DNA from: a virus
Taxonomy: Duplodnaviria > Caudoviricetes
Virus record (IMG/VR): IMGVR_UViG_3300033076_001341
Coordinates: 1 to 64,000 of that record
DNA: 64,000 bases
Reading direction: 5' to 3' (one strand)
The stretch's first letter is position 1. Each line of letters starts with the position of its first letter. Both the position numbers and the translations under genes were made by a program. The notes beneath the pieces were generated by a model. The model was not told the DNA's origin, made no database searches, and was given only the letters and a program-made list of their open reading frames with translations. Below, one piece after another: positions 12,164 through 27,746 of this stretch.

Positions 12164-12519
12164 TCCATCAGTATAAGGTCCGAGTAGACGTATACTCCTG
12201 TAATGTGCATGTGGTCGTTACTGACGACATGAATGCCTATATCCGTGAGTTGGAAAAACAGTATGGTACGGTCGAAGGAGTAGATGGCAGCGAAGGGTTC
12301 ATGTACACCCCGGATATGAAAACGTACTACGTGGTCTTTGACGATGTATTTCTCACACACAACACCATTGCGCACGAAGTATTTCACCTGACGTGTTCAA
12401 TCTGCAATGACCGGGACGTGATCGAGGAAGAACCCAAAGCATGGTTAAGTGGTTTTCTAACCGAAAACATTTACAAGTTTATTGACAAGAAGAATTTAGT
12501 TCTAAAGAAAGATGCCTGA
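12160..12519 (+). CDS. Small zincin-like (HExxH) protein
   Basis: TIAHEVFH plus downstream EEEPKAW third-ligand region; ATGA overlap with the upstream gene. Confidence 0.7.
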   Translation: MIHQYKVRVDVYSCNVHVVVTDDMNAYIRELEKQYGTVEGVDGSEGFMYTPDMKTYYVVFDDVFLTHNTIAHEVFHLTCSICNDRDVIEEEPKAWLSGFLTENIYKFIDKKNLVLKKDA

Positions 12520-15500
12520 ACAATCCAACCCTTTAAATTCCGTCAACGCCTTTAACAAGGGTATGATCAAAGACCTCAACGATTCATTCGTAGGGGAAGG
12601 TCTGTGGACGCACGCACGTAACGCGGTGAACAACTCTCACCTGGGTGAGATGGGTGTGCTGGGCAATGAGCAGAGTAACCTCTTTTGTGTGGCAGCTCCC
12701 TATGACATCATCGGTGTGCTGGACATTACTCCGGGAGAATGGTTGATCTTCTCCACCAACGACGTTGACAGTGAGATTGGAATCCTGCAGGAAACCGCGT
12801 GCAAATACACCAAGCTGGCAAACAACCGCTGTCTTGGTTTTAAGAAAAGCAATTTGATTACCGGTGCGGTCAAGTCTAACTACGACTGCACGCATTCTGC
12901 CTACTGGGCAGACGCTCTGAATCCTGACCGGTTCATGAACATAAATCATGTTCCCTATAAGTACACCGTTCAGGAAGATCCTTCCAATCCAGGATGTCAG
13001 ACCAAAGTATATACCGATGAGCTGGATTGCGATAAGCTCCTGCTACATCCCCATCTGAAGACACCGTGTCTGGATCTTCAGAAAGGTAAAGGTGCCGGTC
13101 AGCTCCCTAACGGAACTTACCAGGCAGCTGTTGCTTACTCCGTGAACGGCATACGCGTGACCGATTACTTTACGCCGTCCAATGCGCAAAGCATCTTCAC
13201 GCACGAGAATGTTGCCGGATCGCTTGAGCTGATCATTGATAACCTGGACGATCAGTTCGATGAATACGAACTGGTGATGGTAGGTTTTGTAAACCAGAAC
13301 ACCACTGCCCGTAAGATCGGCAACTACAGCACTTCTCAAAAAGTAGTGATGCTCGATAACTATTCAGCGTCCCTGGAAGTGATTCCTTACCGGTTGATTC
13401 CACTGCTTAACAGCATCTACGAGAAAAGCTCCAAGATGTTTACCCTTAACGGGTATTTGCTGCGCAGCGGGGTAACCACCAAAGCAGACTTTAACTACCA
13501 ACCCCTGGCAAACAAGATCCGCTCCAAGTGGGTCAGCGTGGAATATCCCAGTGATTACTACGTCAAGGGGGGACACCTCACCGGCTACATGCGCGATGAG
13601 CAATATGCGTTCTTCATTCGCTGGGTCTATAAGACCGGGCACAAGAGTGCATCCTATCACATTCCCGGCAGACCACCCATTGACAGCATCGACCGCAAGG
13701 CGGTAAGTTCGACAGACGGAGACGTATTGGACAGTGGTGTTGAAAAACAGGAGTGGCAGGTTCGTAACACCGCTACGGTGACTTCGATTGCTCCCGGCAT
13801 TACGGCTGCAGACAGCGGCTACGTAGTTGCTGAAGGAGACATGGGGTACTGGGAATCTACTGAGCAATATCCTGCGGACAAACCGCAGATCTGGGGAGAT
13901 TTGTGTGGCAAGAAACTCCGTCACCATAAATTCCCTGATACCTTTACCGACGGATCAGATGTTACCAACATCCACTCTCAGGGTGGAGAAAGCATTCGTA
14001 TCCTGGGTGTGCGCTTTGAGAACATTGAGCATCCTCTGGACATCAATGGTAATCCGATCACTGACATCGTGGGGTACGAAATTCTGCGCGGTACCCGCGA
14101 GGGAAACAGAACCATTGTTGGAAAGGGACTGATCAACAACATGCGTGAGTACTCCATTCCTGGAAGAACCACCAAAGGTCTTTACCAAAACTTCCCCTTC
14201 AACGATCTGGGTGCTGACCGCTACCACCGCAGCTTTAGTAATTTTGATGATTTCTACCAGAGCGGTAGAGGAGATGATGATACGTCCAACGACGCTTTGA
14301 CCGGCTATCGCAAGGACATGTTTAGTTTCCACAGTCCTGAAACAAACTTCCGCAATCCATACCTGAGCACCTACGAACTCAAAGTACACAACCTGCAGTA
14401 CGGTACTTCTACCGGTCGCTTCAAGTACGTGTACCAGCATCCGAAGTTCAAGGTCCTCAACGATGGTGCCATGGTGCTTGCAAGCTTTTTGGCGGGACTG
14501 GTGATTGCGAATGCCATCACTTCCCGTACACCGATCACCATAGGCGGTACAACGGATGTTCCGATGACTACACCGCTGACTGCCGGTACCGATTCACTGA
14601 CTGTAGGTACGACTACCAATGCTGCCGGAGTGGCGGCACAGGTAGCTGTTGCCGTCCTGTTTGTAGGTACTGCTTTTGACATGGTCAATGAGAACATTTT
14701 GCAGTCTATCGCGCTGATGTCAAAATACCGCGATTACGCCCTTCAAGTCGATCAGGTGGGGGAATACTCCAACGCAGCAGAGAACGTGGCAGGAAACAAG
14801 CGCAGACGCGTAAAACGGAGCAACTACGTTGATCCTACCCTGATGCAGTTTGGTGGATCATACCGGATCAACAATATGCTGCGCAATCGCTTCGTCGGTG
14901 TAGAGCTGGAAAACGAGTTGAGTGACCCTGCGGTGATTGATGATTCACGCCGCTTGATTACGGACGTGAGTGCCAATGTTGGCGAAGACTTTACTTCTAC
15001 AGTGAGTTCGTACTATGCGTCGCTGAAAGTCGATTATCAAAACCAGTACGGACAGATCGCTAATATCTCGCAGGTACCAATCACATCGTGTGTATATCTG
15101 ACCGAAGCGGTGAAGCGCAAACAATTCAGCACCCCGGTACTCTTCGGTGGCGACATCTACGTAAACCGATATACCGAGAAGAACTCGATGTTCTTCTTCA
15201 ATACAAATGCCTGCGGATTTCCCGACGGAACCATTTTTGATTACCGCACCAGCGTAAACATTCCTTTCCCACGGTACTGGATTGACAGCAACAAGTATGA
15301 AGGATTGCTGGGTGGCAACAATGGTGGACTCATCAACTTCCCCAGTGATCAGCGTTCCCTGAACCGAAAGAACTCCAACGGGTTCCGGTTCAGTGTAAAA
15401 AATGCCTACTTCTATCTGTTCAATTCCGGTGTCAGAGAATTCTTCGTGGAAAGCGAAGTAAACCTTGCGCACCGCGATTGGGGCGAGCGCATGAGTGAGC

Positions 15501-17938
15501 GTCACTACGACCGCTATTCATTCACCTCTACCGATGAGTTGTTCCGATCAGACATCATTGCTACGGGTAACTATTACAAGTACGACTACTCGCTAAGTTT
15601 GAGTAAATCCATCCAGCAATACGGAAGCTGGGGATTTGTGCTGCCTTCTTCCTACGATCCGTTTGTATCGCAGAGCTGTTTTGCCAACCGCGAGAAGCGC
15701 GTGCTGTATTCGTTGCAGTCGCAGATGGAAGGAAAGAAAGACAACTGGAGAGTGTACCTGGCAAACAACTACAAGGACTTTAACAGTCGCGTATCAGCGA
15801 TCAAAGCAATCAATAAGACGGGAGCAATCATCCTTTACGAGGATGCAGAACCTACCCAGTTTGTCGGAGTCGATCAGTTGCAGACCGATGCCGGCACCAA
15901 GATTACCATTGGAGACGGCGGACTCTTTAACCAGGCACTGCAGTCACTGGTAAACGCTGATGACACCATGCAGTACGGATCATGCCTGAGCGGTCGATCT
16001 GCGGTGAACACACCTCATGGATTATTCTACGTCTCTGAGCAAACCGGCAAAATCCTCAATTACAACGGCAACGGACTGGAAGAGATCTCCCGCAACGGGC
16101 TGAACTACTGGTTCCAGAAATACCTGCCCAGTAAGTTACTGGAACGCTATCCCGATTACCGGGGTATTGACAACCCGGTTGCTGGTATCGGTGCACAATC
16201 AGTGTACGATCCGCAGTTTGAGCTGGTGTATTTCTCCCGCGTGGATTATGTACCGCTTAGTACAGAGGTTAAGTACGATCCGGCTTACGGATTCTATAAA
16301 GACTACCTGACAACAGTAAAAGTTCCTGGAGAGACTACCCAAAGCTGTCCTGCAGGATATACGCTCAAGACAACTCCAAGCGGGGTAAAATTCTGCGAGA
16401 AGATTGAAACAATTGGAGCTACGTCGACACCGACTACTTACAACGTACAACCCTACACTGATCCTGCATGGGGTTGGAGAGGTACGGTGATCTACTCACC
16501 AGGATGGAACACCAATGGTACAGGTGCAGGTCATGCTGCCGGTGTTACCGATACAGCCGGCTGGACACAGATTTCCAGTTCCAACCCATTCTGGTTTAAG
16601 AACTACAGCACGACGCCCTCAATCTACAACACCAACCCGGTAAACCGCCTGGCGGTCTGGGATGCTGCAGGTGCAAACACTGTAGGAGAACGAGGATTCA
16701 GTTTCAACATCTGTCTTCAGGAATCCAAGACCTATTATGTGGGTCTTACCGGTGATAACTATTTTACATTGAAGATCAACGGCGTGATCATCCTGCAAGC
16801 TGATCCGGCGGAGATGCGACTGAACCACAGCATTCCCGGCACTGACAAGGTGCAGTTTGAAAAGTTGCACATCTACCCGGTGGAATTAGAAGCAGGTAAC
16901 CACATCGTGGAGCTGATAGGCAACAACGAAGGCGGACCTGGAATGATTGGTGCGGAGATTTATGACAACACTCCTGCCGAACTGGTAGCAGCCAGCAGTT
17001 ATAACGATTTGAACGTGGTGTTCACCACCCGGGAGAAAACAGTCTTTACGGCTAACACGTTTAGCTGTCCGGTGGATTACACCCTTGGTTTGTCTAATGA
17101 CTGCAACACTGCCGTGTGTCAGCGTGTATTAACCGCCCCTGTAGTAGAAGTAACCCTTCCTGATACAGAGAAAGTGGTAAATAAACGCCTGCGCGTGAGT
17201 CTGCAGGACCCTGTGTATTTTACCCGCTGTGCCTGGACTGTGTCTTACGATCCCAAGAGCAAGATGTGGATCAGTTTTCATGACTGGCATCCTGACCTGG
17301 TGATTCAACCGCACGAACATTTCATGACCATCAAAGGTCCTGGTATATACAAGCACAACAAACGCTGGGACAGCTATTGCAATTTCTATGGGGTGGATTA
17401 TCCTTTCGAGATTGAGTTCCCGACATCTACATCAAACACGATTACCACGATTCGTAATGGTGAGTACGTGCTGGAGAATTACATCTTCTCTAATGATGGA
17501 TTTAGTGCGCATGAAGTACTGGATCACAACTTTGACCAGGCTGTCGTTTATAACAACGAACAGATCTCCGGTGCGCTGAATTTAGTACTCAAACCCAAGA
17601 ACGATCCGATGGGTATGCTTACCTATCCGAGAATCAATCCGAATAGCATTGACATTCTCTTTAGCAAGGAAGAGAACAAATACCGCTTCAATCAATTCTG
17701 GGACATCACGCGCGAGCGCGGGGAGTTCACAACCACCAGAACACCAATGTGGCTGGCTGATTGCAACGGGTACGTTCGGAAAATCAACTCAGATTACGTA
17801 AATTATAATAAAGCACCTCTTGAACGTAAGAAGTTCCGTCACTACGCAGATCGATTCCTATTGATCCGAAAAATCAGTGGTAATGTCAAAATGCTCATGA
17901 AGCTGTTTACTACCAAGAAGCTCTATAGTCCCCGATGA
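12512..17938 (+). CDS. Tail stabilisation/muzzle protein (P22 gp10-like), 1808 aa, with PA14-like insertion
   Basis: N-terminal FNKGMIKD...ARNAV...LGNE; YMRDEQYAFFI; C-terminal WTVSYD...WISFHDWHPD; position between tail tube and cargo genes. Confidence 0.8.
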   Translation: MPEQSNPLNSVNAFNKGMIKDLNDSFVGEGLWTHARNAVNNSHLGEMGVLGNEQSNLFCVAAPYDIIGVLDITPGEWLIFSTNDVDSEIGILQETACKYTKLANNRCLGFKKSNLITGAVKSNYDCTHSAYWADALNPDRFMNINHVPYKYTVQEDPSNPGCQTKVYTDELDCDKLLLHPHLKTPCLDLQKGKGAGQLPNGTYQAAVAYSVNGIRVTDYFTPSNAQSIFTHENVAGSLELIIDNLDDQFDEYELVMVGFVNQNTTARKIGNYSTSQKVVMLDNYSASLEVIPYRLIPLLNSIYEKSSKMFTLNGYLLRSGVTTKADFNYQPLANKIRSKWVSVEYPSDYYVKGGHLTGYMRDEQYAFFIRWVYKTGHKSASYHIPGRPPIDSIDRKAVSSTDGDVLDSGVEKQEWQVRNTATVTSIAPGITAADSGYVVAEGDMGYWESTEQYPADKPQIWGDLCGKKLRHHKFPDTFTDGSDVTNIHSQGGESIRILGVRFENIEHPLDINGNPITDIVGYEILRGTREGNRTIVGKGLINNMREYSIPGRTTKGLYQNFPFNDLGADRYHRSFSNFDDFYQSGRGDDDTSNDALTGYRKDMFSFHSPETNFRNPYLSTYELKVHNLQYGTSTGRFKYVYQHPKFKVLNDGAMVLASFLAGLVIANAITSRTPITIGGTTDVPMTTPLTAGTDSLTVGTTTNAAGVAAQVAVAVLFVGTAFDMVNENILQSIALMSKYRDYALQVDQVGEYSNAAENVAGNKRRRVKRSNYVDPTLMQFGGSYRINNMLRNRFVGVELENELSDPAVIDDSRRLITDVSANVGEDFTSTVSSYYASLKVDYQNQYGQIANISQVPITSCVYLTEAVKRKQFSTPVLFGGDIYVNRYTEKNSMFFFNTNACGFPDGTIFDYRTSVNIPFPRYWIDSNKYEGLLGGNNGGLINFPSDQRSLNRKNSNGFRFSVKNAYFYLFNSGVREFFVESEVNLAHRDWGERMSERHYDRYSFTSTDELFRSDIIATGNYYKYDYSLSLSKSIQQYGSWGFVLPSSYDPFVSQSCFANREKRVLYSLQSQMEGKKDNWRVYLANNYKDFNSRVSAIKAINKTGAIILYEDAEPTQFVGVDQLQTDAGTKITIGDGGLFNQALQSLVNADDTMQYGSCLSGRSAVNTPHGLFYVSEQTGKILNYNGNGLEEISRNGLNYWFQKYLPSKLLERYPDYRGIDNPVAGIGAQSVYDPQFELVYFSRVDYVPLSTEVKYDPAYGFYKDYLTTVKVPGETTQSCPAGYTLKTTPSGVKFCEKIETIGATSTPTTYNVQPYTDPAWGWRGTVIYSPGWNTNGTGAGHAAGVTDTAGWTQISSSNPFWFKNYSTTPSIYNTNPVNRLAVWDAAGANTVGERGFSFNICLQESKTYYVGLTGDNYFTLKINGVIILQADPAEMRLNHSIPGTDKVQFEKLHIYPVELEAGNHIVELIGNNEGGPGMIGAEIYDNTPAELVAASSYNDLNVVFTTREKTVFTANTFSCPVDYTLGLSNDCNTAVCQRVLTAPVVEVTLPDTEKVVNKRLRVSLQDPVYFTRCAWTVSYDPKSKMWISFHDWHPDLVIQPHEHFMTIKGPGIYKHNKRWDSYCNFYGVDYPFEIEFPTSTSNTITTIRNGEYVLENYIFSNDGFSAHEVLDHNFDQAVVYNNEQISGALNLVLKPKNDPMGMLTYPRINPNSIDILFSKEENKYRFNQFWDITRERGEFTTTRTPMWLADCNGYVRKINSDYVNYNKAPLERKKFRHYADRFLLIRKISGNVKMLMKLFTTKKLYSPR

Positions 17939-19884
17939 AAAAACTAACAAAAGTCCCGGTAACACCTAACGGACAATGGGAATATCCCGGTCAACCGACG
18001 ATGGTTCCTTCCCCTTCAGGAAGGATTACTATGAAGGGCGTCCCATATCCTGTGATGGGTGTTGATGAGACAGGTCATTCGATCATGATGATGCCGGGTG
18101 GAGAGTACCAGTTTCCTGGAGACATGGTCTATGAACAACCCGTAATGAAAAACGGCGGATACACTGTAACGCGTAGCAATGACCGCAAAGGAAAAACGCA
18201 CAAAGTAACCGGACCTGATGGTACGGTAAAATACTTTGGTGACTCAAAGCTTGGTCAGCATCCTAAAGATCCTGAACGCAAAGCAGCGTTCTATGCTCGT
18301 CATAAAAAGAACCTGGAGAAAAATCCGTACTTCCGTGCATTTGCAAGAAAGACCTGGGAAGAAGGTGGACAGACCGATAGTGATGCAGAAATGCTTGAAG
18401 GTGTGGCAGACATGCTGCGCCAAGTCAAAGACGGGAAAAACCGTAAAGAGATTGCCGAGTACATGATGGGAAACTTTCGTGACGAGAATGTCTCTTTTAA
18501 TCCAAATGATTTTTTAGAGGATGCTCAAGTGTTTGCACAAGGTGGTGAAATGATCCGCCGTGCTGATGGGTCGTATTCGAGACGCGGTCTGTGGGATAAC
18601 ATCCGTGCGAATAAAGGCAGCGGAAAAAAACCAACCAAAGAGATGCTGGAACAGGAACGCAAGATCAATGCAAAGATGCAAGATGGTGGTTGGCTGGATG
18701 CATATCAAGAGGGAGGTTCACAAAAAGTCCTTCCAAGCTGGTTGACTGTCAATACCAACACACCTGCGCAAATCAGGTCCATGACTCCTGGTGCGAATGA
18801 TTACAATCTAGATGATTACGCCCAGGGTGATATCTCTCAAGATGTGCGTGATGCACTGAACAATAGCAAATTCAAGCTGGCTGCGACCAAAGATATGGGT
18901 AAGCTTGGTCGATTAAACGTAGACACATCCGTGAGACCTTTTGCGGAAGAGTCCAGAATTGATCTTCCAAACATCACTTACGAGAACTCCATTGGTAATG
19001 ACAACCGCAACCTCGATGTCCGCTTCGGACCAGAGGGGCAGTCATTTAGTGCAACCAGTAACAAGTTTATCCAGGGTAGTGCTGACTTAAATCGAACCCG
19101 CACTCCGGAGGGTTTTGATACCCAGGCAAGCATGAACGTACGCTTCCCTAACAACCGAGGAAGTGTGACGCGCAGTGTGGCGTACAAAGACGGTGAAAAC
19201 CCTTACATGCGGGAGCTGCAGGCAGCTTACCGGATGGGAAAGACAAACCTCAACGCGTTTACTAGAACCGAAGATGGGCAGAATAGCTACGGTGCCGGAC
19301 TAAATACCAGTATGGGTCCGCTTGACGTAAATGGAAACGTTGGTTTCAACAATCAGGGTGTTCAGAATTACATGGTCTCTGGAAAACTCAACCTGGTAGA
19401 ACCTTCACGACGCAATCCAAATAGCGGCACTCTGGATCTTACAGGACGCTACGGTGCTAGTCGTAACCAACAAGGATCAATGAATCCAAACTACAACATT
19501 GGACTGAGTTATTCGAACGAATTTGAACAAGGTGGTCCAACGGGTTGGTTAGACAAGTATCAGGAAGGTGGTGACCAAGAGTCCAGCCTTGAAAACTTTG
19601 CGGAGTTTTTTGATCCCACAGGAATGTTGTCATGGGGTGACGCACAAAGAGCGTACAACCAATGGCAAAAATCCAACTCTACATTACCATCAATGGGTCA
19701 GGCACTAGACATGTTTGGTGCGGTTCCGGGTCTTGGGAAACTTGGTAAGCTAAAGTACTTAGATCCAGAAGCAATGAAAGTTGCTTATAAGAGCATTCCC
19801 TGGCAGCAAATCGTTAACGGAATTGACTATGCTACAGATGAAGCATCTAAACAAAAATTACCTGTAAAAGCAAAAACCCGATGA
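17935..19884 (+). CDS. Modular putative cargo/ejection protein with [MFYW]xxGG linkers
   Basis: 649 aa with seven such motifs separating compositionally distinct modules. Confidence 0.6.
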   Translation: MKKLTKVPVTPNGQWEYPGQPTMVPSPSGRITMKGVPYPVMGVDETGHSIMMMPGGEYQFPGDMVYEQPVMKNGGYTVTRSNDRKGKTHKVTGPDGTVKYFGDSKLGQHPKDPERKAAFYARHKKNLEKNPYFRAFARKTWEEGGQTDSDAEMLEGVADMLRQVKDGKNRKEIAEYMMGNFRDENVSFNPNDFLEDAQVFAQGGEMIRRADGSYSRRGLWDNIRANKGSGKKPTKEMLEQERKINAKMQDGGWLDAYQEGGSQKVLPSWLTVNTNTPAQIRSMTPGANDYNLDDYAQGDISQDVRDALNNSKFKLAATKDMGKLGRLNVDTSVRPFAEESRIDLPNITYENSIGNDNRNLDVRFGPEGQSFSATSNKFIQGSADLNRTRTPEGFDTQASMNVRFPNNRGSVTRSVAYKDGENPYMRELQAAYRMGKTNLNAFTRTEDGQNSYGAGLNTSMGPLDVNGNVGFNNQGVQNYMVSGKLNLVEPSRRNPNSGTLDLTGRYGASRNQQGSMNPNYNIGLSYSNEFEQGGPTGWLDKYQEGGDQESSLENFAEFFDPTGMLSWGDAQRAYNQWQKSNSTLPSMGQALDMFGAVPGLGKLGKLKYLDPEAMKVAYKSIPWQQIVNGIDYATDEASKQKLPVKAKTR

Positions 19885-19910
19885 TCACCGGTTAGACAAA
19901 TAAAACAAGA

Positions 19911-21773
19911 ATGAAAAACAACTTTTTACAAATAGCGGGTGTTGCCACCGAGAAAGAATTTTACAAGAAGTATCCTACTGAGGATGCTTTTTTTGCTGCT
20001 CACCCCGAAGCCGCACAAATGAAACACGGTGGTGCCGTTGATCTGAATGCGTTTTACAACCAACCAAGATTTGTGCAGACTAACATTTTTGCAGAAGGTG
20101 GAAACTTTAGCGCTGCACCAGTCAATACGTTCATGTCTCCAGGCATTGACAACGACCCCCGGTTCGAACAATACTATAATCAACAGATTCAGAAGTTCAA
20201 TCAGTCTGGAGTAAAAGATATTCCTTCTCGCAATGACATTTACTCCTACTATCAATCTTCTAATCCGACAGCAGTAGCTGATCAAAGCGGACGAATGATG
20301 TTTAGCAATCCTGCCGGAACTATTTCCGCAGGCAGCATCTTTACCCAGGCAGTTGATCCTGTAACCGGTAAGGTGATCAATCAAGGTACCAACTTGGCAA
20401 AGTCAGCTTTTGATAATCAAGCAAGACGTTTTGATTTTGGTGGTGACATGTTGCCTGAGTTTCAATATGCGGGTCCGTATATGGATATGAATCCATGGAT
20501 GAAAACGATCAAGACAGTTGACAACGAATCAAACACTGGATTGTTCAGCGGCAATGCTCCTGTATCAGGAATGCCGTTTATACCTGGATTCAGGATACCA
20601 GACAACGAAGCGGGTGTAACTAATTTTACCGGTAATCCCCCGGTATCAGGTACTCCATTCATTCCTGGAATTTCCGTACTTCCTGGACAGGAAGGACCGA
20701 CTAATTTTACAGGTGCGGCACCCGTATCGGGACAACCTGTTGATCTTTCTAATACTCCTGCAGCAAAAAAAGCAGCAACAGCCTGGCAACAAACTCCCGC
20801 GCAAGGTACTGCTGCAGCAACTGCTGCAAAAGCTGCTGGAAACGCAACAGCTAAACCTGCTACCTCTACCGGTGACCCAGTGTATCAGGAATATAATACA
20901 GGTGCAAATGGTTCTCGTACGTTCTACATGCAACCCATTGCAAAGACGCAGATGCTCGGTGATAAAGCGTATCGTTCACTCAGTGGCAACGCCATGCTTC
21001 CGATTTACAATCCTGCCATTGGTATGATGAGTGATAACGGTCTGAGTGGTATGCTCAAGATGGGACTGGGTGCCATCAGCGGACTAAGCGGTATGGCAAC
21101 CGGACTAGACAACATCGTTCGCGGATTCAAGGGTCGTAAAGAACCCGGTAAACCACGTATGGACTGGAACGATCCCAACAATGCAAAAGCTCTTTACCAG
21201 GAACCTGTTCAGCAGGAGATGTTGCGAAAGCAAAACAACCAGCTGACACCGCCTCCTGTTAACCCTGCGAAACCTGTGATCCCGATTCCTAACATGCAGC
21301 AGATGGATGAATTCAACCGCACAGCTGCTTATGGTGGAATGATCAAAGCAGAAAACGGTGTTGACTTTACCAAGAATCCAGCGATTGATCCTTCACAGAT
21401 CAAGATTGGTGCAAACCAGTACGGCGTTGATGTTCATGGTGGTATTACCCGCACCATGGGTGCAAACGCAGGTGTGAGCATGTTTAACAACGCACTGGGT
21501 TACCAGCAGGCAATGAAACAGGTTCGTGAGAACAATGTCAAAGCAGGCATGACTGATTTTGCGTATCAACCTGATGACACCAACTGGATGCCGATGGGTT
21601 ATGACACACTCAATACCGGTCCTGGTCAAACGCAAGCACCGAATCTCTATACTCCGGTGCAATACGCCGGCATGCAGATGCAGAGTCAGTTTGAAGAAGG
21701 TGGCGAGTATGATTTAACTGAAGAAGAAATCCGTCAGATCCTGGCAGCAGGTGGCGAAATCGAGTTCATGTAA
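19911..21773 (+). CDS. Low-complexity putative cargo protein
   Basis: 620 aa, rich in N/Q/P/G/M; xxGG motifs; 27-aa repeats; amphipathic helix GMLKMGLGAISGLSGMATGL. Confidence 0.55.
   Translation: MKNNFLQIAGVATEKEFYKKYPTEDAFFAAHPEAAQMKHGGAVDLNAFYNQPRFVQTNIFAEGGNFSAAPVNTFMSPGIDNDPRFEQYYNQQIQKFNQSGVKDIPSRNDIYSYYQSSNPTAVADQSGRMMFSNPAGTISAGSIFTQAVDPVTGKVINQGTNLAKSAFDNQARRFDFGGDMLPEFQYAGPYMDMNPWMKTIKTVDNESNTGLFSGNAPVSGMPFIPGFRIPDNEAGVTNFTGNPPVSGTPFIPGISVLPGQEGPTNFTGAAPVSGQPVDLSNTPAAKKAATAWQQTPAQGTAAATAAKAAGNATAKPATSTGDPVYQEYNTGANGSRTFYMQPIAKTQMLGDKAYRSLSGNAMLPIYNPAIGMMSDNGLSGMLKMGLGAISGLSGMATGLDNIVRGFKGRKEPGKPRMDWNDPNNAKALYQEPVQQEMLRKQNNQLTPPPVNPAKPVIPIPNMQQMDEFNRTAAYGGMIKAENGVDFTKNPAIDPSQIKIGANQYGVDVHGGITRTMGANAGVSMFNNALGYQQAMKQVRENNVKAGMTDFAYQPDDTNWMPMGYDTLNTGPGQTQAPNLYTPVQYAGMQMQSQFEEGGEYDLTEEEIRQILAAGGEIEFM
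20544..20740 (+). repeat. Three in-frame 81-nt (27-aa) degenerate tandem repeats
   Basis: F(S/T)GxxPVSGxP(FIPG) units begin at 20544, 20625 and 20706. Confidence 0.85.
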
Positions 21774-21793
21774 TTAGGAATCGTCACTTATAA

Positions 21794-21812
21794 TTAGTAA
21801 ATTCTATTAGTA
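21794..21812 (+). promoter_or_regulatory. Putative phage late promoter (TAAATT-N6-GTA)
   Basis: TTAGTAAATTCTATTAGTA; 15-nt identity with 3995-4009. Confidence 0.6.
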
Positions 21813-21824
21813 CCCCTGCCTAAC

Positions 21825-21836
21825 AAGTTTAAACTT
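21825..21836. promoter_or_regulatory. Palindromic operator-like site AAGTTTAAACTT
   Basis: Perfect 12-bp palindrome, repeated at 24967-24978; both copies lie next to promoter-like motifs. Confidence 0.45.
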
Positions 21837-21848
21837 CTGAAGTTTATT

Positions 21849-24800
21849 ATGAAAGTCCGTATCAAGAAAACTCCCCGCACCGGTGATCAACGCGATTACT
21901 CGCTTACCACACACCGTCCATGGTCTCCAACCAATACTGAAGATCCAAACGCTGTACAAAATACCATCAGTGGTGTACCTCGTCAAATGGCAAACATTGA
22001 AGCGGAAGGTGGAGAAACCGTTTTGGGAGATATCAATAACGATGGCAACATCGAGCACATGACGATTACCGGGAAGAGACACACCGAGGGCGGCGTTCCA
22101 TTGAACGTCCCTCCTGGAAGTTTTATCTTCTCAGACACCCGTAAACTGAAGATCAAAGATCGTGCGGTACTGGATCACTTTGGTATGGGTGGCAGAAAAG
22201 ACGGGTACACGCCTGCAGAAATTGCAAAGCGCTATCAGTTAAATGATTTCATGCAGAAGGTCAACGATCCCAATACCGATCCGATGACCCGACGCACCGC
22301 TGAGCGCATGTTGACCAACAACATGAATAAGCTGGCACAGCTGGCTGCTTACCAGGAAGGAATGAAAGGAAACACTCCTCCTGCAGTATCGCAACAGATG
22401 TTACCGGACCAGGGACAGACCATGGCAGAAGATGCTTTTGCATATAGTGCTGCACAGATGGACCCCGCAGAAATGATGATGCGCTATGGTGGAGGCATTC
22501 CAAAGATGCAAACTGCCGGCAGCGTACCACCCAAAATCGGAACTACATATTACGTCAATGGTCAGCCCATCAAGCTTGACCGCTACGAAGACGATAGCAT
22601 CAGCGATTACTTCACTCCCAACTTTATGGCAGATCCGGGTGGAGTATATTTCAAAGACAAAAACAACGAAGAATTCTATTTACCCTACGATCAGTTCAAG
22701 AACTTGCGTAGTAAGGGTAAAGTACAAACTGAAGGTAGCGGCAAATCATCCTGGTGGACCAGTGATGGGCTGCGACAGTATGAGTTTTCGACTACTCCTG
22801 GTGGTAGTAAACCAGCGTTAAAAGTCAACAACAACACCACGTTCCATGTGGGAGATGTGATTACTACCAAAGACGGAACTTTCAAAGTGAGCAATCCCCA
22901 GGCAGCTCCTCACCCAACTGCAAAGTATTCAGCGATTGAAGTGACTGGTCCTGGAGGAAAGAAGCAACTGATCAGCGTCAAAGGAATCCTCGATGATGTA
23001 AACAAAGGCATGGCGGAGATCAGGTATGCAGGTACTCCTGCAGCCACTGCAGCAAGTGCAAATAATACAGAAGCGACCACGATAGTCTACGATGCTGCCG
23101 GTAACGCAAGAGAAATCAGCATAGCCGATAAGATCCCAGCTGGTTACACCAAGAAAAAACCGACTGCTGCGCCAGTCGTAACTACTCCTGCAAACACTAA
23201 CAGGCAGGTGACAGGTACTCCTAAGACATTACCTAAAACTCAACCCAAGTCAAACGTAAAAGTGTACGAGAGCTTTGAAGAAGCAGTCGACGAGAAATGG
23301 AATGAGTTGCAGGACCGCGCAAACGGTGGACAGCTTTATCAAGAAGGTGGTCAAAGTACACCTCCCAAATACAAATACGATGCTGCCAGTCGCAGGATGG
23401 TTCCTGTAATGCAGACTGCCGGTACAACCCCGACGGGCGAACGCGAGTTTGTCGAAACCATCCAACTAAAGGACGGACGTAAAGGCAAGCGTGTGACCAA
23501 GGGTAACTTTGTGACGACCTATGATGATCAGGGCAAACAAGTTGCTCAAAAGCAAATTGAACAGGATTACGGTACCTATAGTGTCCAGGACATTGACAAA
23601 TGGAAACAGGACGGCATCGATGTTACTTTACCTAGTTCCCTGCAGAAAACGTACGACAAGGACAAAGTAGAAGGCAGACAAGGTATTCGTGCTACAGGAA
23701 CCTATGGAACCCAGGATTACTACAATCCGGAAAACGCTGCGGACTTCAAAACTCGTCAGAAACGTTTTGTAGACGCTAACCCAAACTTTGATCCCAAGAA
23801 AGATGCTGGTGTTTTTCAGGACTGGTACAACAAAGATATTTATGACCAGGCACTCGCTGCCGGTTACTCACCCGAAGAAGCAACTGGGTATGTAAACAAG
23901 TTTGGATTTGTCGCCGGATCAGTTGACCCCAATGACAAGGACGGAAAATTTGGTCGCTACACCTGGTCACGTCCAGCTATTAAGATCAACCCAAAAGCAA
24001 AAGCACCGCAGACAGTGTATCGCTGTCCCGATTGTATCGGTGTGCAGGTACCTGCTGACTATGCAATTACTGCGTCAGACTTTACCAGTCAGGCAGCATG
24101 TCAAACTGCTTGTGCACAGAAAAGCACTCCACCACCTCCTGCTGCAGAAAGAGATAATGATTTCTGGATTCAGGATAAGATTGCTATTGCAAATGCCGGT
24201 ACCATGGATCGTTTCTACGGTGAACCTGCTATGTTCCAGATGAACCCATCACTTTATGATCCTCAGCTGGAAGAATACAGTGCAAAGAATGCGGCACTGC
24301 AAAGTGATGCGTCTTTGGCAATGAGTAACATCAATGCCTCTGCAGATCCGACGACTGCGCGAGCAAACATTGCAGCAATCAGCGGACAGCTTGGACAGGC
24401 AGGTATCAATGAGATTGCCAACATTCAGAACCGCAACGTCAACACCACCAACCAGGTAGCAGCAGATCGTGCCCGTTTGAAAAACGATGCAAATGTTCGT
24501 AACCTGGGTATGCGTAAGCAGTTCTATGATGAGACGCAAGCGTACGGTCAGAACCTGGTGAATTCATCCAACATGCAACGGACTAATCTTGCCAACGCAA
24601 TGAATCATGGATTCCAGGGATTGCAGGCGCGTAACATGATGCGTGCGATCTACCCGATGTATGACATTGATCCTTCTACCGGTGCCAAGATGTTTATTGA
24701 TGGTGAAGACTTTACCGACAACACCACCTACACAACATCTCCTGCTGCCAACAGCGGCGCATCGCTTCCAGCATTGATTGAGCATTATAAGAAACAACTT

Positions 24801-24968
24801 AGCAGTGTACTTGGTCCGGAAGAAGCAGCTAAACAAGCGGTTGTCCTTGCCCGTGATGACATGAAAGAAATGAGTCAGTCCCGCAACATTTCTCAGCGAG
24901 CATTACTGCAAAACAACCCGATGGCAGCAATGTCTGGCATGACCGGTGGTAACCCTTTCGGTAAATAA
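21849..24968 (+). CDS. Cargo protein 1-like (ejection protein), 1039 aa
   Basis: N-terminal EAEGGETV...GKRHTEGGV...IFSD motif typical of crAss-like cargo protein 1; Q/N/A-rich helical C-terminus; synteny. Confidence 0.65.
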   Translation: MKVRIKKTPRTGDQRDYSLTTHRPWSPTNTEDPNAVQNTISGVPRQMANIEAEGGETVLGDINNDGNIEHMTITGKRHTEGGVPLNVPPGSFIFSDTRKLKIKDRAVLDHFGMGGRKDGYTPAEIAKRYQLNDFMQKVNDPNTDPMTRRTAERMLTNNMNKLAQLAAYQEGMKGNTPPAVSQQMLPDQGQTMAEDAFAYSAAQMDPAEMMMRYGGGIPKMQTAGSVPPKIGTTYYVNGQPIKLDRYEDDSISDYFTPNFMADPGGVYFKDKNNEEFYLPYDQFKNLRSKGKVQTEGSGKSSWWTSDGLRQYEFSTTPGGSKPALKVNNNTTFHVGDVITTKDGTFKVSNPQAAPHPTAKYSAIEVTGPGGKKQLISVKGILDDVNKGMAEIRYAGTPAATAASANNTEATTIVYDAAGNAREISIADKIPAGYTKKKPTAAPVVTTPANTNRQVTGTPKTLPKTQPKSNVKVYESFEEAVDEKWNELQDRANGGQLYQEGGQSTPPKYKYDAASRRMVPVMQTAGTTPTGEREFVETIQLKDGRKGKRVTKGNFVTTYDDQGKQVAQKQIEQDYGTYSVQDIDKWKQDGIDVTLPSSLQKTYDKDKVEGRQGIRATGTYGTQDYYNPENAADFKTRQKRFVDANPNFDPKKDAGVFQDWYNKDIYDQALAAGYSPEEATGYVNKFGFVAGSVDPNDKDGKFGRYTWSRPAIKINPKAKAPQTVYRCPDCIGVQVPADYAITASDFTSQAACQTACAQKSTPPPPAAERDNDFWIQDKIAIANAGTMDRFYGEPAMFQMNPSLYDPQLEEYSAKNAALQSDASLAMSNINASADPTTARANIAAISGQLGQAGINEIANIQNRNVNTTNQVAADRARLKNDANVRNLGMRKQFYDETQAYGQNLVNSSNMQRTNLANAMNHGFQGLQARNMMRAIYPMYDIDPSTGAKMFIDGEDFTDNTTYTTSPAANSGASLPALIEHYKKQLSSVLGPEEAAKQAVVLARDDMKEMSQSRNISQRALLQNNPMAAMSGMTGGNPFGK

Positions 24969-24978
24969 GTTTAAACTT
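24967..24978. promoter_or_regulatory. Palindromic operator-like site AAGTTTAAACTT (second copy)
   Basis: Identical to 21825-21836. Confidence 0.45.
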
Positions 24979-25006
24979 TTAAGAGTTATAAATCTTTGAA
25001 GTTTTT

Positions 25007-25025
25007 TTCGTAAATTATTAGTGTA
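25007..25025 (+). promoter_or_regulatory. Putative phage late promoter (TAAATT-N6-GTA)
   Basis: TTCGTAAATTATTAGTGTA, ending 3 nt before ATG 25029. Confidence 0.55.
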
Positions 25026-25028
25026 CCC

Positions 25029-27746
25029 ATGGCAACCTACTTACAGAACTCCACGGATGTCTTCCCTCAGATAGACTACGCGACACCCGACTATCAGCTG
25101 ATGTCTACAGCACTGGGCGCACTGACTCAGCGGTATAATGCTGGTTTCAATAAACTTCGCAGCATGTACAGCTCTTTGCTGAACTCCCCGGTATCCAATC
25201 CGGAGACAGAAAAGATGCGTCAGATGTGGTTTCAGAAAAACAATGAGCAGCTCAAACAATATGCGCACGTCGATTTATCGGTGAGCAGTAATGTCTCCAG
25301 CGCTATGTCAAGCTTTGATCCGCTGGTAGAGAACCGCTCCTTTGTTGCTGACATGAATTACACCCGTCAGTATCAACAGCAGGCTGCCCAGATCAATCAA
25401 TACAAAACCAGCACGGATGAGAAAGTGCGCAAACTCTACAATCCTCTGATGGAGGAATATGTACAGCGAGGCGTACAACAACTCAAGACATCCAAGTTTG
25501 ATGACATTCCATCGCACAGTGTACGCGATTACCTGGCAGTAGAAGATCCGATGAGCTACCTCAATGCGCAGGCAAAGGAGCAGGGACTGAAAATTGTTCG
25601 AGAACAAAGCAGCGGGATGTACATCCTGAAGAACACCAATGGAGATGCTGCCAAGCAGGACTTCAGCGAGTGGGCAGAACAACTACTTGGTTCTGGAATG
25701 TATGGAGAATATTACAACCGTGCCGCTTCCGTAACTGTTGACCGCATGGTGGATATGAAGCTTCGCGAATTACCTGGAGCAACCCGCGAGCAGGCACTTG
25801 AACAGATCGGTAAGGAGTCTTTGCCGGAGATTTACAAATCACACGAGAGTTATACCAACAGTATCCGCTATAACATTGCGCAGATTGACAGCATGAAAAA
25901 CAGTGCTATCAATAAGTATGGCAGCAAAGTTCCTCCGCAAGTGGCTCAGCAGTTACAACAGGTCGCTCAAAAGCGCAAAGAGTTACAAGCAAAACTCGAT
26001 GATGCTGAGTCACGCCCGGAGGCTTACGCTCAGGCAGTCAATGAAGTCGTACAGAACTTCACCCGCAACCCCCAAGGTTACCAGGCAACGCTGCTGCGTA
26101 CCCGCGATTCCAGGACATGGGCAAGCAATTATGCGGATGTACATGCTGAAAGCGAAATGCGTCCTGACCAGGTCAAACTGGAAATGTACCAGCAACAACA
26201 ACAAAACTATCGTCAGAGTCGTCAGTTTGAGCACGACATGAATAAGGCAAGGTTGGAACACACCTTCCGACTTAGAGAAAAAGAATACGAAAAGACGCTG
26301 GAAGCGCAAGGGGTAATGACCCAGGGTGTCAATGAAGTGGCAACTGAAAACCAAACACCCATGGAAGCATTCGAAAAAGAAATCACCACCAAGGTAGCAG
26401 AATCTTCTATTGCCATGACCAGTGGTGATGTGCTTGCCGTAACGCTGAACCTGCCGACTTCAAATGGTAAAGTGAGCGGTAAGATTCCCGGTGGATCTTT
26501 GGGTGCCTTGCAAACCGCTGTGCGTAACAGTGAGGTGAGTTTCTTCAGAGGTGTTCCCTTGTCAAAAGAAGACCAGGCGATCCTGAACGCCTTCACGATG
26601 CAGACGACTGGGCAGAAGTTTACCAACTTTAACCAGGTACAGCGCATCATCAACGACAATGTCGAGAAAAACGATTCACATCCGCTTTATCGCAATGCTA
26701 CTGCCAGTCTCAGTAAAGGTATGAGAGGTATGGCTGAAGTCACGATGCTTTCCCGCAAGGAACAACAAACCCTTGCTTCGCATGCGGCTGCACATCCTGA
26801 TCATTTTACCCAGGATGCAAACGGTCGCTGGATTCGGGTGGGTAACCACGCCGCTGATCCGGTGCTTAGCAGGATTGTTCCAGACGCAAAAAAATATGAA
26901 GGTGCTACCGGAACAACGCTTCCGACGCTTACCTATAATGTCAATCCGGACAAGAGTGATATGAGTCACGTGACCCGGGTGGCACAGCAGTCAGCCAAGG
27001 TTGGATACTATGATTCTACCGGGAAGTTTAACGAGTTCTCCAGTGAAGACGCTCAAGCTGTCAAGAACATTATGGGTCGATTGGGAACTGCAAACCTGCG
27101 TACCAGCGTGGATGCAAACATCTCCATTACTCCCGGAGATCGCTACAACGGTAAGGACATGGTTCGTGTAACCATTCCTTTGGTTCGTTCCGGAGAGAAA
27201 GGCAACCTGGCGCTTGCAGCATTTGGTTTACCAGAAGACGTTGTTGAAAAAGCAGGATCTGCCAACTCCATTACGTTTATGGTTCCTGCTGAAAAAGCAA
27301 ACCAGCTTGGATTTAATACCAAGCTGATCCGTACTTCCAACGGTAGTATTATCTCTCAGCCGGATCTGAGCAGCTACATGATTGGTGCGGCGCAATCTTC
27401 TGCGGAAGAAACACCTTTTACCAGCGACTTGCTAAAACTTAACCAGGGAGCAAGGTCTGTACCATTCCCAAGCTACATGCGAATTCACGGACAAGACGGT
27501 GTATTCTCTATGCGCGATGGTCAGGTCTACATTGGATTCTACGATAAGAACGGTGACGTTATTTCAGAGGAGGCAACCGGTGTAAGTAAAGTTACTCCTC
27601 AGACTGCCCGTCAACTCGAGGATGCTGCACAGGCATACATTGAGCAGCAGGCAAATGCAAAGCATACAGCAACTATGAACACCATACAGCAAAACCGTAG
27701 CAGAGCGGGTGCTGATTGGGTAGACGTAAACAAGATATTCCAGTAA
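25029..27746 (+). CDS. Cargo/ejection protein, 905 aa
   Basis: Helical, coiled-coil N-half; lies in the cargo block before the RNAP. Confidence 0.6.
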   Translation: MATYLQNSTDVFPQIDYATPDYQLMSTALGALTQRYNAGFNKLRSMYSSLLNSPVSNPETEKMRQMWFQKNNEQLKQYAHVDLSVSSNVSSAMSSFDPLVENRSFVADMNYTRQYQQQAAQINQYKTSTDEKVRKLYNPLMEEYVQRGVQQLKTSKFDDIPSHSVRDYLAVEDPMSYLNAQAKEQGLKIVREQSSGMYILKNTNGDAAKQDFSEWAEQLLGSGMYGEYYNRAASVTVDRMVDMKLRELPGATREQALEQIGKESLPEIYKSHESYTNSIRYNIAQIDSMKNSAINKYGSKVPPQVAQQLQQVAQKRKELQAKLDDAESRPEAYAQAVNEVVQNFTRNPQGYQATLLRTRDSRTWASNYADVHAESEMRPDQVKLEMYQQQQQNYRQSRQFEHDMNKARLEHTFRLREKEYEKTLEAQGVMTQGVNEVATENQTPMEAFEKEITTKVAESSIAMTSGDVLAVTLNLPTSNGKVSGKIPGGSLGALQTAVRNSEVSFFRGVPLSKEDQAILNAFTMQTTGQKFTNFNQVQRIINDNVEKNDSHPLYRNATASLSKGMRGMAEVTMLSRKEQQTLASHAAAHPDHFTQDANGRWIRVGNHAADPVLSRIVPDAKKYEGATGTTLPTLTYNVNPDKSDMSHVTRVAQQSAKVGYYDSTGKFNEFSSEDAQAVKNIMGRLGTANLRTSVDANISITPGDRYNGKDMVRVTIPLVRSGEKGNLALAAFGLPEDVVEKAGSANSITFMVPAEKANQLGFNTKLIRTSNGSIISQPDLSSYMIGAAQSSAEETPFTSDLLKLNQGARSVPFPSYMRIHGQDGVFSMRDGQVYIGFYDKNGDVISEEATGVSKVTPQTARQLEDAAQAYIEQQANAKHTATMNTIQQNRSRAGADWVDVNKIFQ

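What the first reader, a model, noticed from the sequence alone, without database searches (positions are those of the whole stretch)
18688..19572. Outer-membrane beta-barrel-like cassette in a cargo protein, flanked by GWLDxYQEGG repeats
Seen: aa ~312-530 consist of short alternating amphipathic strands with tight turns (SYGAGLNTSM, LDVNGNVGFN, NYMVSGKLNL, TLDLTGRYGA) and end YNIGLSYSNEF, similar to an OMP beta-signal. No signal peptide is evident. The unit is bounded by GWLDAYQEGG (18688-18717) and GWLDKYQEGG (19543-19572). Inference: a porin-like module delivered from the virion (ejection channel, receptor blocking or BAM interference), exchangeable by recombination between the flanking repeats.
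Basis: inference. Interest (0 to 1): 0.7.

Follow-up and report, generated by a model that had tools for sequence, protein, structure and literature searches.

The report
Membrane-barrel-like cassette in phage cargo protein
A crAss-like phage carries, inside a patchwork protein that it probably packs in its particle and ejects into the host, a rare swappable 270-residue module predicted to fold like a bacterial outer-membrane barrel; this suggests, but does not prove, that the phage plants its own beta-sheet pore or anchor in the host's outer membrane.

Summary
ORF 17935-19884 (649 aa) holds GWLDAYQEGG and GWLDKYQEGG at exactly the stated coordinates. They bracket an all-beta segment, and the protein has no signal peptide and no hydrophobic helix.

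- **Fold:** two AlphaFold2 runs (pLDDT 66-69) and the ESM Atlas model each give a 15-16-strand antiparallel meander. All top-50 PDB neighbours are outer-membrane barrels (Z 10-12.8). High rmsd to 16-strand porins leaves barrel closure unresolved.
- **Strand pattern:** across seven homologues one strand face is 66% hydrophobic and the other 85% polar.
- **Portability:** the cassette occurs in only seven proteins, with three different sets of flanks. It is absent from positional orthologues in syntenic phages. In the closest phage, homology stops at the first motif.
- **Flanking repeats:** they are not cassette-specific. WLDxYQxGG is a family-wide junction motif (27 copies in 18 of 219 relatives) that also brackets other cassettes. 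The two DNA copies are only 73% identical.
- **Relatives:** they carry cell-wall enzymes and the crassvirus cargo-protein-1 domain, so the protein probably acts in the envelope.

Membrane insertion remains untested. This scan noted analogous, non-homologous modules in other crAss-like phages.

The parts
12512..17938 (+). Upstream 1808-aa virion structural (tail-tip type) gene. Its stop overlaps the start of the cargo gene.
   Evidence: PHROG 37948/15100 'virion structural protein'. 26% identity over 82% of its length to Cellulophaga phage phi17:2 gp043, a virion structural protein. Conserved and syntenic in L006-L013.
17935..19884 (+). Mosaic cargo-type gene, 649 aa (P0001)
   Evidence: ORF and translation. 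More than 3800 metagenomic relatives share shuffled modules.
17935..18144 (+). Module A (aa 1-70)
   Evidence: Found in 123 of 219 fetched relatives, at varying positions.
18145..18369 (+). Module B (aa 71-145), the most widespread module
   Evidence: Found in 194 of 219 relatives. No Pfam family.
18370..18543 (+). Module C (aa 146-203)
   Evidence: Found in 58 of 219 relatives. A C-like module follows the cassette in P0134, P0220 and P0221.
18544..18687 (+). Module D (aa 204-251)
   Evidence: Found in 166 of 219 relatives.
18688..18717 (+). Junction motif 1, GWLDAYQEGG. It marks the homology breakpoint with the closest phage.
   Evidence: Protein homology to P0004 ends here. DNA identity to L006 is 75-85% up to nt 18714 and about 55% after it.
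18718..18870 (+). Cassette N-terminal segment (aa 262-312), conserved but modelled with low confidence
   Evidence: Conserved columns in A4. pLDDT 30-48 in both models.
18871..19524 (+). Cassette beta-meander (aa 313-530): 15 predicted antiparallel strands of 7-14 residues joined by turns of 2-11 residues
   Evidence: AlphaFold2 models. Fold searches. ESM Atlas model. Dyad pattern.
19480..19524 (+). Last strand (aa 516-530), ending in an aromatic residue; resembles a beta-signal but does not fit the consensus exactly
   Evidence: Read from the sequence. Its Y, I, G, L, Y, N and F residues are invariant or near-invariant in the seven homologues.
19525..19572 (+). EQGG linker plus junction motif 2, GWLDKYQEGG (19543-19572)
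   Evidence: The same motif-then-module-E arrangement occurs in P0145, behind a different cassette.
19573..19881 (+). Module E (aa 547-649)
   Evidence: Found in 41 of 219 relatives. 66-71% identical in P0071, P0090, P0092 and P0093.

Best explanation
The gene encodes a patchwork ejected ('cargo') protein of a 128-kb crAss-like phage that probably infects Bacteroidota. It is built of small modules joined by Gly-Gly junctions. Residues 262-533 are one such module, a rare portable cassette that folds as an amphipathic sheet of 15-16 antiparallel strands of the outer-membrane-barrel type. The most likely mechanism is as follows. The protein is stored in the particle and extruded through the tail at infection. 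The cassette then enters the host outer membrane, alone or as several copies that complete a barrel. There it anchors or opens the envelope-spanning conduit, while the other modules stay in the periplasm. Insertion could be direct from the tail tip, or from the periplasm through the host's BAM machinery; which route is open.

The flanking WLDxYQxGG decapeptides are generic inter-module junctions of this protein family, where cassettes have been exchanged. They do not belong to the cassette.

What is shown: the anatomy, the portability, the breakpoint, the predicted fold class and the envelope-directed modules in relatives. What is inferred: packaging in the virion, ejection, membrane insertion and any pore.
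For: - **Fold:** AlphaFold2 with 4 and with 7 sequences gives the same 15-strand meander (mean pLDDT 65.9 and 69.2, pTM 0.50 and 0.52). All 50 best PDB matches by VIA-align are outer-membrane or organelle barrels (Z 10-12.8), and Foldseek agrees. The ESM Atlas model of the same protein matches usher and other outer-membrane barrels at TM 0.61-0.66 over 217-237 residues.
- **Pattern:** in seven homologues one strand face is 66% hydrophobic and 25% polar, with conservative hydrophobic swaps. The other face is 7% hydrophobic and 85% polar.
- **No alternative membrane segment:** there is no alpha-helical membrane segment in this protein or in the next three genes.
- **Context:** the gene directly follows the conserved tail structural gene and lies upstream of the virion RNA polymerase genes. 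Relatives that share its modules carry crAss_CARG1 (6e-22), YkuD, Amidase_2, CHAP, SLT, LysM and PG_binding_1-like modules.
- **Recurrence:** other relatives carry unrelated barrel-like modules that also end just before a GG junction, for example P0208 ending SLGLRYSF, P0097, and the L013 orthologue.
- **Portability:** seven carriers have three kinds of flanks. Orthologues in L006-L013 lack the cassette, and the breakpoint lies at motif 1.
Against: - Model confidence is only moderate and the alignment is shallow.
- Rmsd to 16-strand porins is 14-17 A and TM 0.3-0.39. The best geometric fits are to 24-26-strand barrels: LptD at 5.8 A over 204 residues, PapC at 8.6 A. So the model is an open curved sheet, not a closed barrel.
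- Invariant Arg387, Arg413 and Asn350 sit on the 'hydrophobic' face.
- The last strand does not fit the beta-signal consensus exactly and is internal to the protein.
- No Pfam, NCBIfam or PDB sequence match to any outer-membrane protein family was found.
- The cassette is rare and absent from close relatives, so it cannot be the core channel of this phage group.
- The outer-membrane-pore ejection proteins described in the papers I searched (T7 gp14, DEV gp72/gp73) are reported with predicted alpha-helical membrane segments, and none as a beta-barrel.
- Virion packaging rests on synteny and on relatives only.
Confidence: 0.45

Rival explanations
1. The cassette is a soluble or virion-internal amphipathic beta-sheet domain. 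Its hydrophobic face packs against a second copy or another protein, as a sandwich, an oligomer or a lining of the tail or capsid cargo zone, or it binds a host surface polymer. It never enters a membrane.
For: The models are open sheets, not closed barrels. Conserved Arg and Asn sit on the hydrophobic face. Turns are short on both sides, with none of the long surface loops of porins. No sequence homology to outer-membrane protein families was found. MORN-repeat and fibre proteins appear among the weak viral fold matches.
Against: Every strong structural neighbour is a membrane barrel. One face is 85% polar with only 7% hydrophobic residues, which fits a water-filled lumen better than a solvent face of a sandwich. 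Strand lengths of 8-14 residues and the all-next-neighbour topology are typical of barrels.
Confidence: 0.3
2. The cassette is a decoy for the host barrel-assembly machinery or for a receptor. As an unfolded barrel-like chain ending in a beta-signal-like strand, it would jam BAM or block a surface receptor, for example to exclude a second infection.
For: The last strand has a conserved Gly, aromatic residues and a final Phe just before the linker. The module has no signal peptide, so it could reach the periplasm only by ejection.
Against: Nothing tested here bears on BAM. The match to the beta-signal consensus is imperfect. A 270-residue conserved meander is much more than a decoy strand needs. 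Only a few copies per infecting virion would face many BAM complexes.
Confidence: 0.07
3. The segment is an Asn/Gly/Ser-rich spacer of low complexity with no stable fold, and the meander is a default prediction for such composition.
For: The composition is N 12.7%, G 9.8%, S 8.7%. Mean pLDDT is below 70. Two of the five AlphaFold2 models in each run scored far lower (39-56).
Against: Seven homologues at 41-56% identity align almost without gaps, with 70 or more invariant columns and a conserved dyad pattern. No internal repeats were found. Two different predictors agree on the fold.
Confidence: 0.1
4. On the flanking motifs (this reading can hold together with any of the above): the WLDxYQxGG and other hydrophobic-x-x-Gly-Gly junctions are processing sites at which a protease cuts the patchwork protein into free modules. 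That would release the cassette with its aromatic strand almost at the new C-terminus.
For: The motif sits only at module boundaries, 27 times in 18 relatives. Relatives carry HExxH zincin-like modules (P0004, P0071). Polyvalent proteins are proposed to be released by embedded peptidases (PMC5512222).
Against: No protease was identified in P0001. No cleavage data exist. Three cassette homologues lack the motif. Conserved flexible linkers explain the pattern equally well.
Confidence: 0.2

Closest known systems
Crassvirus cargo proteins C1/C2 (PhiCrAss001 gp45, gp46; Bayfield et al. 2023, PMC10172136)
   Same: The gene sits in a block between the tail-tip structural gene and the virion RNA polymerase genes. 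The proteins are large, poorly conserved and expected to be ejected first and to form the envelope channel. Relatives that share modules with P0001 carry the Pfam crAss_CARG1 domain.
   Different: P0001 itself has no crAss_CARG1 hit. gp45 is proposed to insert by a predicted alpha-helical segment, whereas P0001 has none and carries a beta-meander instead.
Bacterial outer-membrane beta-barrels (16-strand porins such as OmpU and Rhodobacter porin; larger barrels such as LptD and PapC/FimD ushers)
   Same: Predicted all-next-neighbour antiparallel meander, strands of 8-14 residues, one hydrophobic and one polar face, and an aromatic end of the last strand. These barrels are the only strong structural neighbours.
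   Different: There is no signal peptide and the module is internal to a larger protein. There is no sequence homology to these families. Closure is not predicted. Turns are short on both sides. The strand number may be odd (15).
Ejection proteins of short-tailed phages (T7 gp14/gp15/gp16, P22 gp7/gp20/gp16, N4/DEV gp71-73)
   Same: They are virion-stored proteins that rebuild a channel across the envelope. They show mosaic exchange of envelope-active domains such as peptidoglycan hydrolases (PMC8954989).
   Different: In the papers I searched, their outer-membrane components are described with predicted alpha-helical membrane segments. I found no beta-barrel module described for any of them.
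Polyvalent proteins of phages and conjugative elements (Iyer et al. 2017, PMC5512222)
   Same: One polypeptide is made of many shuffled modules. Relatives carry ART-PolyVal and zincin-like HExxH modules.
   Different: The modules found here are mostly directed at the envelope (cell-wall enzymes, barrel-like cassettes) rather than at DNA or defence systems. The GG junction motif is not mentioned in the parts of that paper I searched.
Insect attacins (Pfam Attacin_C; Hermetia attacin, PMC10690985)
   Same: Both are Gly-rich amphipathic antiparallel sheets with no membrane-export route of their own. Attacins reach the Gram-negative outer membrane from outside. The Hermetia attacin is modelled as a porin-like oligomer and was shown to damage the outer membrane. 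The cassette gives a weak Pfam match and language-model resemblance to attacins.
   Different: The match is below the family threshold and occurs in only one of four homologues. Attacins have about 5 strands, against 15 here. The resemblance is probably convergent.

Membership tests
Outer-membrane beta-barrel proteins | All-next-neighbour antiparallel beta-meander of 8 or more membrane-length strands | tested here: met
   15 strands of 7-14 residues in two AlphaFold2 models. This is a prediction only.
Outer-membrane beta-barrel proteins | Closed barrel (first strand pairs with last) | tested here: inconclusive
   Rmsd is 14-17 A to 16-strand porins. The best fits are to 24-26-strand barrels (5.8-9.8 A), which implies an open curved sheet. 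Model coordinates could not be inspected.
Outer-membrane beta-barrel proteins | Lipid-facing hydrophobic belt alternating with a polar lumen face | tested here: inconclusive
   The faces are 66% against 7% hydrophobic across seven homologues, but Arg387, Arg413 and Asn350 on the hydrophobic face are invariant. My crude dyad-density score ranked the cassette first of 60 sequences but missed OmpF, so it is not a valid detector.
Outer-membrane beta-barrel proteins | N-terminal signal peptide for export | tested here: not met
   The module is internal, and the protein has no hydrophobic N-terminal core.
Outer-membrane beta-barrel proteins | C-terminal beta-signal (polar-x-Gly-x-x-aromatic/hydrophobic-x-aromatic, at the chain end) | tested here: inconclusive
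   Gly, Tyr and a final Phe are conserved. However, the spacing is two residues longer than the consensus, position -3 is an invariant Asn, and the strand is followed by a linker and another module.
Outer-membrane beta-barrel proteins | Sequence homology to a curated outer-membrane protein family | tested here: not met
   No Pfam, NCBIfam or PDB-sequence match was found.
Attacin_C (PF03769) | Score at or above the Pfam gathering threshold, reproducible in homologues | tested here: not met
   17.3 bits against a cut-off of 28.8 (E 0.006), and in 1 of 4 homologues only.
Crassvirus cargo protein 1 (PF25725 crAss_CARG1) | Portal-binding CARG1 domain | tested here: not met
   No hit in P0001 at E up to 0.1. 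The domain is present in 2 of 36 module-sharing relatives (6e-22) and weakly in P0206.
Crassvirus cargo protein 1 (PF25725 crAss_CARG1) | Gene between the tail-tip gene and the virion RNA polymerase genes | tested here: met
   ORF order in the window. The same order holds in L006-L013. The downstream genes of the Cellulophaga phage homologue are virion proteins.
Crassvirus cargo protein 1 (PF25725 crAss_CARG1) | Presence in purified virions | not testable with these tools
   The phage is uncultured and no proteome is available.
Polyvalent proteins (Iyer et al. 2017) | Many unrelated modules shuffled within one polypeptide across relatives | tested here: met
   Modules A-E occur in different orders and combinations in 219 relatives. 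Pfam census.
Polyvalent proteins (Iyer et al. 2017) | Embedded peptidase or hallmark effector domains (zincin-like MPTase, ART-PolyVal) | tested here: not met
   None in P0001. They are present only in relatives: ART-PolyVal in P0055 and HExxH motifs in P0004 and P0071.

The most novel reading that the evidence does not exclude
crAss-like phages of Bacteroidota deliver ready-made outer-membrane-type beta-sheets from the virion. These insert without Sec export, either directly or by using the host BAM machinery from the periplasm. Alone or as oligomers they form the outer-membrane gate of the ejection channel. The Gly-Gly junction motifs would be a shared code for swapping, and possibly cleaving, envelope-active cassettes among cargo genes.
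Probability: 0.3. Interest if true: 0.85.

Novelty: new variant of a known kind. Interest (0 to 1): 0.6.

Why it matters
How crAss-like phages cross the Bacteroidota envelope is unknown. The ΦcrAss001 structure paper could only suppose that its cargo proteins build the channel (PMC10172136). In the papers I searched, ejected outer-membrane components are described with predicted helical membrane segments. A virion-borne module of the outer-membrane-barrel type would therefore be a different solution. It would also be a natural case of a beta-barrel-type protein reaching a membrane without a signal peptide. The idea can be tested directly with one refolded 30-kDa fragment. The junction motif also gives a practical rule for cutting these unannotated patchwork proteins into modules. 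If the module proves to be a soluble sheet, the finding reduces to one more unknown cassette in a hypervariable phage gene.

Tried and rejected
- **Phage GenBank records:** tblastn with P0001 and megablast with 20 kb of the window found no match.
- **Wider collections, cassette profile:** scans of viral contigs, metagenome contigs and genome contigs gave pattern hits, but none was confirmed. There is no second copy in the phage's own 127,939-bp genome.
- **Region-limited protein search:** it found only P0123. A two-sequence profile search added P0220-P0222.
- **Internal repeats:** hhalign of cassette parts against each other gave probabilities of 0.2 or less.
- **Sequence matches:** PDB sequence searches gave nothing meaningful. 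NCBIfam gave nothing.
- **BFVD viral fold library:** only weak matches, the best being a phage-encoded OmpC-like porin at E 1.8e-3.
- **My dyad-strand density score:** it ranked the cassette first of 60 sequences but scored OmpF low, so I do not use it as evidence.
- **Beta-signal-plus-GG regex:** it was enriched fivefold over shuffles, but the hits were mostly the linker motif itself, so this does not show beta-signals.
- **Other barrel-like modules in relatives:** Pfam scans (P0208, P0097, P0108, P0146, L013) gave no outer-membrane family.
- **Attacin homology:** rejected as membership because the match is below threshold and not reproducible in homologues.
Full report
**What is there.** The window is the first half of a complete 127,939-bp IMG/VR virus record. 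ORF 17935-19884 encodes 649 aa (P0001), and its ATG overlaps the stop of the upstream 1808-aa gene. In shuffled versions of the protein the best 10-mer pair matched at 7 of 10 at most. As DNA the two copies share 22 of 30 bases with no long exact run. They are therefore a conserved peptide motif, not a pair of recombination-grade DNA repeats. The protein has no signal peptide and no hydrophobic helix: the highest 19-residue hydropathy mean is 0.66, and the next three genes also have none.

**The host protein is a patchwork.** Searches found 1,367 relatives by word index and 3,892 by full phmmer. They share only pieces of the protein. I mapped P0001 onto 219 fetched relatives, which gives six units:
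- module A, aa 1-70, in 123 relatives;
- module B, aa 71-145, in 194;
- module C, aa 146-203, in 58;
- module D, aa 204-251, in 166;
- the cassette, aa 262-533, in 4 at that stage;
- module E, aa 547-649, in 41.

These units occur in many orders and positions. The relatives also carry these Pfam domains: DUF5872, DUF3597, YkuD, Amidase_2, CHAP, LysM, SLT, ART-PolyVal and the crassvirus cargo-protein-1 domain (crAss_CARG1, 6e-22 in 2 of 36 relatives). Sub-threshold PG_binding_1 matches recur in three further relatives. Most of the recognisable modules therefore act on the cell wall, and the family overlaps with known crassvirus cargo proteins.

**Position in the genome.** The gene follows a conserved structural gene. 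That gene matches PHROG 'virion structural protein' families and is 26% identical to Cellulophaga phage phi17:2 gp043. The downstream neighbours of gp043 are all annotated as virion proteins. P0001 lies upstream of the giant virion RNA polymerase genes noted by other agents of this scan. This matches the order muzzle gene, cargo 1, cargo 2, polymerase genes in ΦcrAss001, where the cargo proteins are thought to build the envelope channel (PMC10172136). Packaging of P0001 in the virion is thus inferred, not shown.

**The cassette is portable and rare.** Profile searches found only six other proteins with it, which fall into two further groups. P0005, P0123 and P0222 are 54-56% identical, and P0134, P0220 and P0221 are 41-43% identical. 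The three groups have different flanks. The third group lacks the WLD motif on both sides and is followed by a module-C-like segment. Scans of viral, metagenome and genome collections found nothing more.

Seven syntenic phage loci (L006-L009, L012, L013, L022) have a positional orthologue of P0001, 718-1449 aa long, right after the structural gene. Each shares some of modules A-D (in L013 only part of B and C), and none has the cassette. In the closest phage (L006) the neighbouring genes are 81-91% identical to those of the window. There, protein similarity runs at about 85% to residue 245 and stops at the first motif. DNA identity falls from 75-85% to about 55% at nt 18715. In its place that phage has a different stretch of about 480 residues with a PG_binding_1-like match, closed by a second copy of the motif.

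**The flanking motif is a family-wide junction.** WLDxYQxGG occurs 27 times in 18 of the 219 relatives, always between modules. Pairs of it bracket other cassettes:
- a PG_binding_1-like module in P0145, followed by module E exactly as in P0001;
- an HExxH zincin-like module in P0071;
- an unknown module in P0144.

The motif is a general junction, though, and three of the seven cassette copies do without it. I cannot say whether it serves as a flexible linker, as microhomology for recombination, or as a cleavage site.

**Fold.** AlphaFold2 on alignments of 4 and of 7 sequences gave the same result. The N-terminal 40-50 residues are modelled at low confidence. Then come 15 antiparallel strands of 7-14 residues joined by turns of 2-11 residues (mean pLDDT 65.9 and 69.2, pTM 0.50 and 0.52). 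With VIA-align all 50 best PDB chains are membrane barrels: OmpU, Rhodobacter porin, Occ channels, TonB-dependent receptors, VDAC, Tom40, LptD and ushers, at Z 10-12.8. Foldseek gives the same list at E 2.5e-4 to 1e-2. The ESM Atlas model, made from the single sequence, matches ushers and other barrels at TM 0.61-0.66 over 217-237 residues.

There are limits. Rmsd to 16-strand porins is 14-17 A and Foldseek TM only 0.3-0.39. The best geometric fits are to parts of 24-26-strand barrels (LptD 5.8 A over 204 residues, PapC 8.6 A over 188). The models are therefore open curved sheets, and closure, whether alone or by several copies, is undecided.

**Strand pattern.** Across the seven homologues one face of the predicted strands is 66% hydrophobic and 25% polar, with conservative swaps among Leu, Val, Ile, Phe, Tyr and Ala. 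The other face is 7% hydrophobic and 85% polar, mostly Asn, Ser, Thr, Asp, Gly and Arg. This is what a barrel with a water-filled lumen looks like. However, Arg387, Arg413 and Asn350 are invariant on the hydrophobic face, so the belt is not clean, especially in the first half of the sheet. Turns are short on both sides, unlike porins with long surface loops. The last strand keeps Gly, Tyr and a final Phe in all homologues, but it is two residues off the beta-signal consensus and is internal to the protein. No Pfam, NCBIfam or PDB sequence match to an outer-membrane family exists. The only hit is a sub-threshold match to Attacin_C (E 0.006, one homologue only), echoed by language-model features (0.79, a lead only). 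Attacins are insect proteins modelled as amphipathic sheets that assemble into porin-like oligomers. One of them was shown to damage the Gram-negative outer membrane from outside (PMC10690985). I treat this as an analogy, not as homology.

**Recurrence of the theme.** Other relatives carry unrelated Asn/Gly-rich strand modules that end in an aromatic strand immediately before a GG junction. These include P0208 aa 250-372 (ending SLGLRYSF, a perfect consensus beta-signal), P0097 aa 455-665, the P0008/P0108 type, P0146, and the L013 positional orthologue aa 50-230. None matches a Pfam outer-membrane family, and I could not fold them. Notes of this scan describe similar modules in cargo proteins of other crAss-like phages. 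These notes are unchecked AI leads, and the cassette sequence itself appears in no other window.

**Reading.** The best explanation (about 0.45) is that the cassette is an accessory, swappable, outer-membrane-active module of an ejected envelope-penetration protein. It would insert as a barrel or an oligomeric sheet to anchor or open the channel. It occupies the slot where sister phages carry peptidoglycan-binding or other modules. The main rival (about 0.3) is a soluble or virion-internal sheet whose hydrophobic face packs against protein. A BAM or receptor decoy (0.07) and a foldless spacer (0.1) are less likely. In the papers I searched, the ejected outer-membrane components are described with predicted helical membrane segments, and I found no description of a barrel-type module in a phage cargo protein. 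If the reading is right, this is a new variant of the ejection-protein theme.

Noticed in passing
window 18145-18369 and 18544-18687: Modules B and D are small, very widespread units, found in 194 and 166 of 219 relatives and up to 90% identical across otherwise unrelated proteins. They have no Pfam family, and their function is unknown.
   Followed up: partly
P0004 (= L006:9001-12117) aa ~880-890; P0071 aa ~418-425: HExxH zincin-like motifs lie in cassettes of relatives. They could be processing peptidases of these patchwork proteins.
   Followed up: no
L013:6718-11061 aa 50-230: This positional orthologue in an 81-kb phage contig starts with a very dense barrel-like strand module (11 dyad-amphipathic windows in 150 residues). 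It is unrelated in sequence to the cassette. A weak Ntox17 match (E 0.02) lies near its C-terminus.
   Followed up: partly
219 relatives; window 17935-24968: A more general junction pattern, Gly-Gly, hydrophobic, x, x, Phe/Tyr, x, x, Gly-Gly, is about fivefold enriched over shuffles in the family. It also occurs in the next two genes of the window (for example at nt ~21666 and ~23313).
   Followed up: partly
window 19911-27746 versus L006-L009: The three genes after P0001 are much less conserved between sister phages (47-77% identity) than the genes before it (81-91%). Module E also turns up in a neighbouring gene in L008 and L012. The whole block is therefore a hypervariable region that exchanges modules.
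   Followed up: partly
window 12512-17938, aa 704-722: The 1808-aa structural protein holds the only strongly hydrophobic helix-like segment of this gene block (19-residue hydropathy mean 2.0).
   Followed up: no
P0146 aa 654-828 and 1190-1290: One relative combines PG_binding_1-like, CHAP and a barrel-like strand module in the same polypeptide.
   Followed up: no
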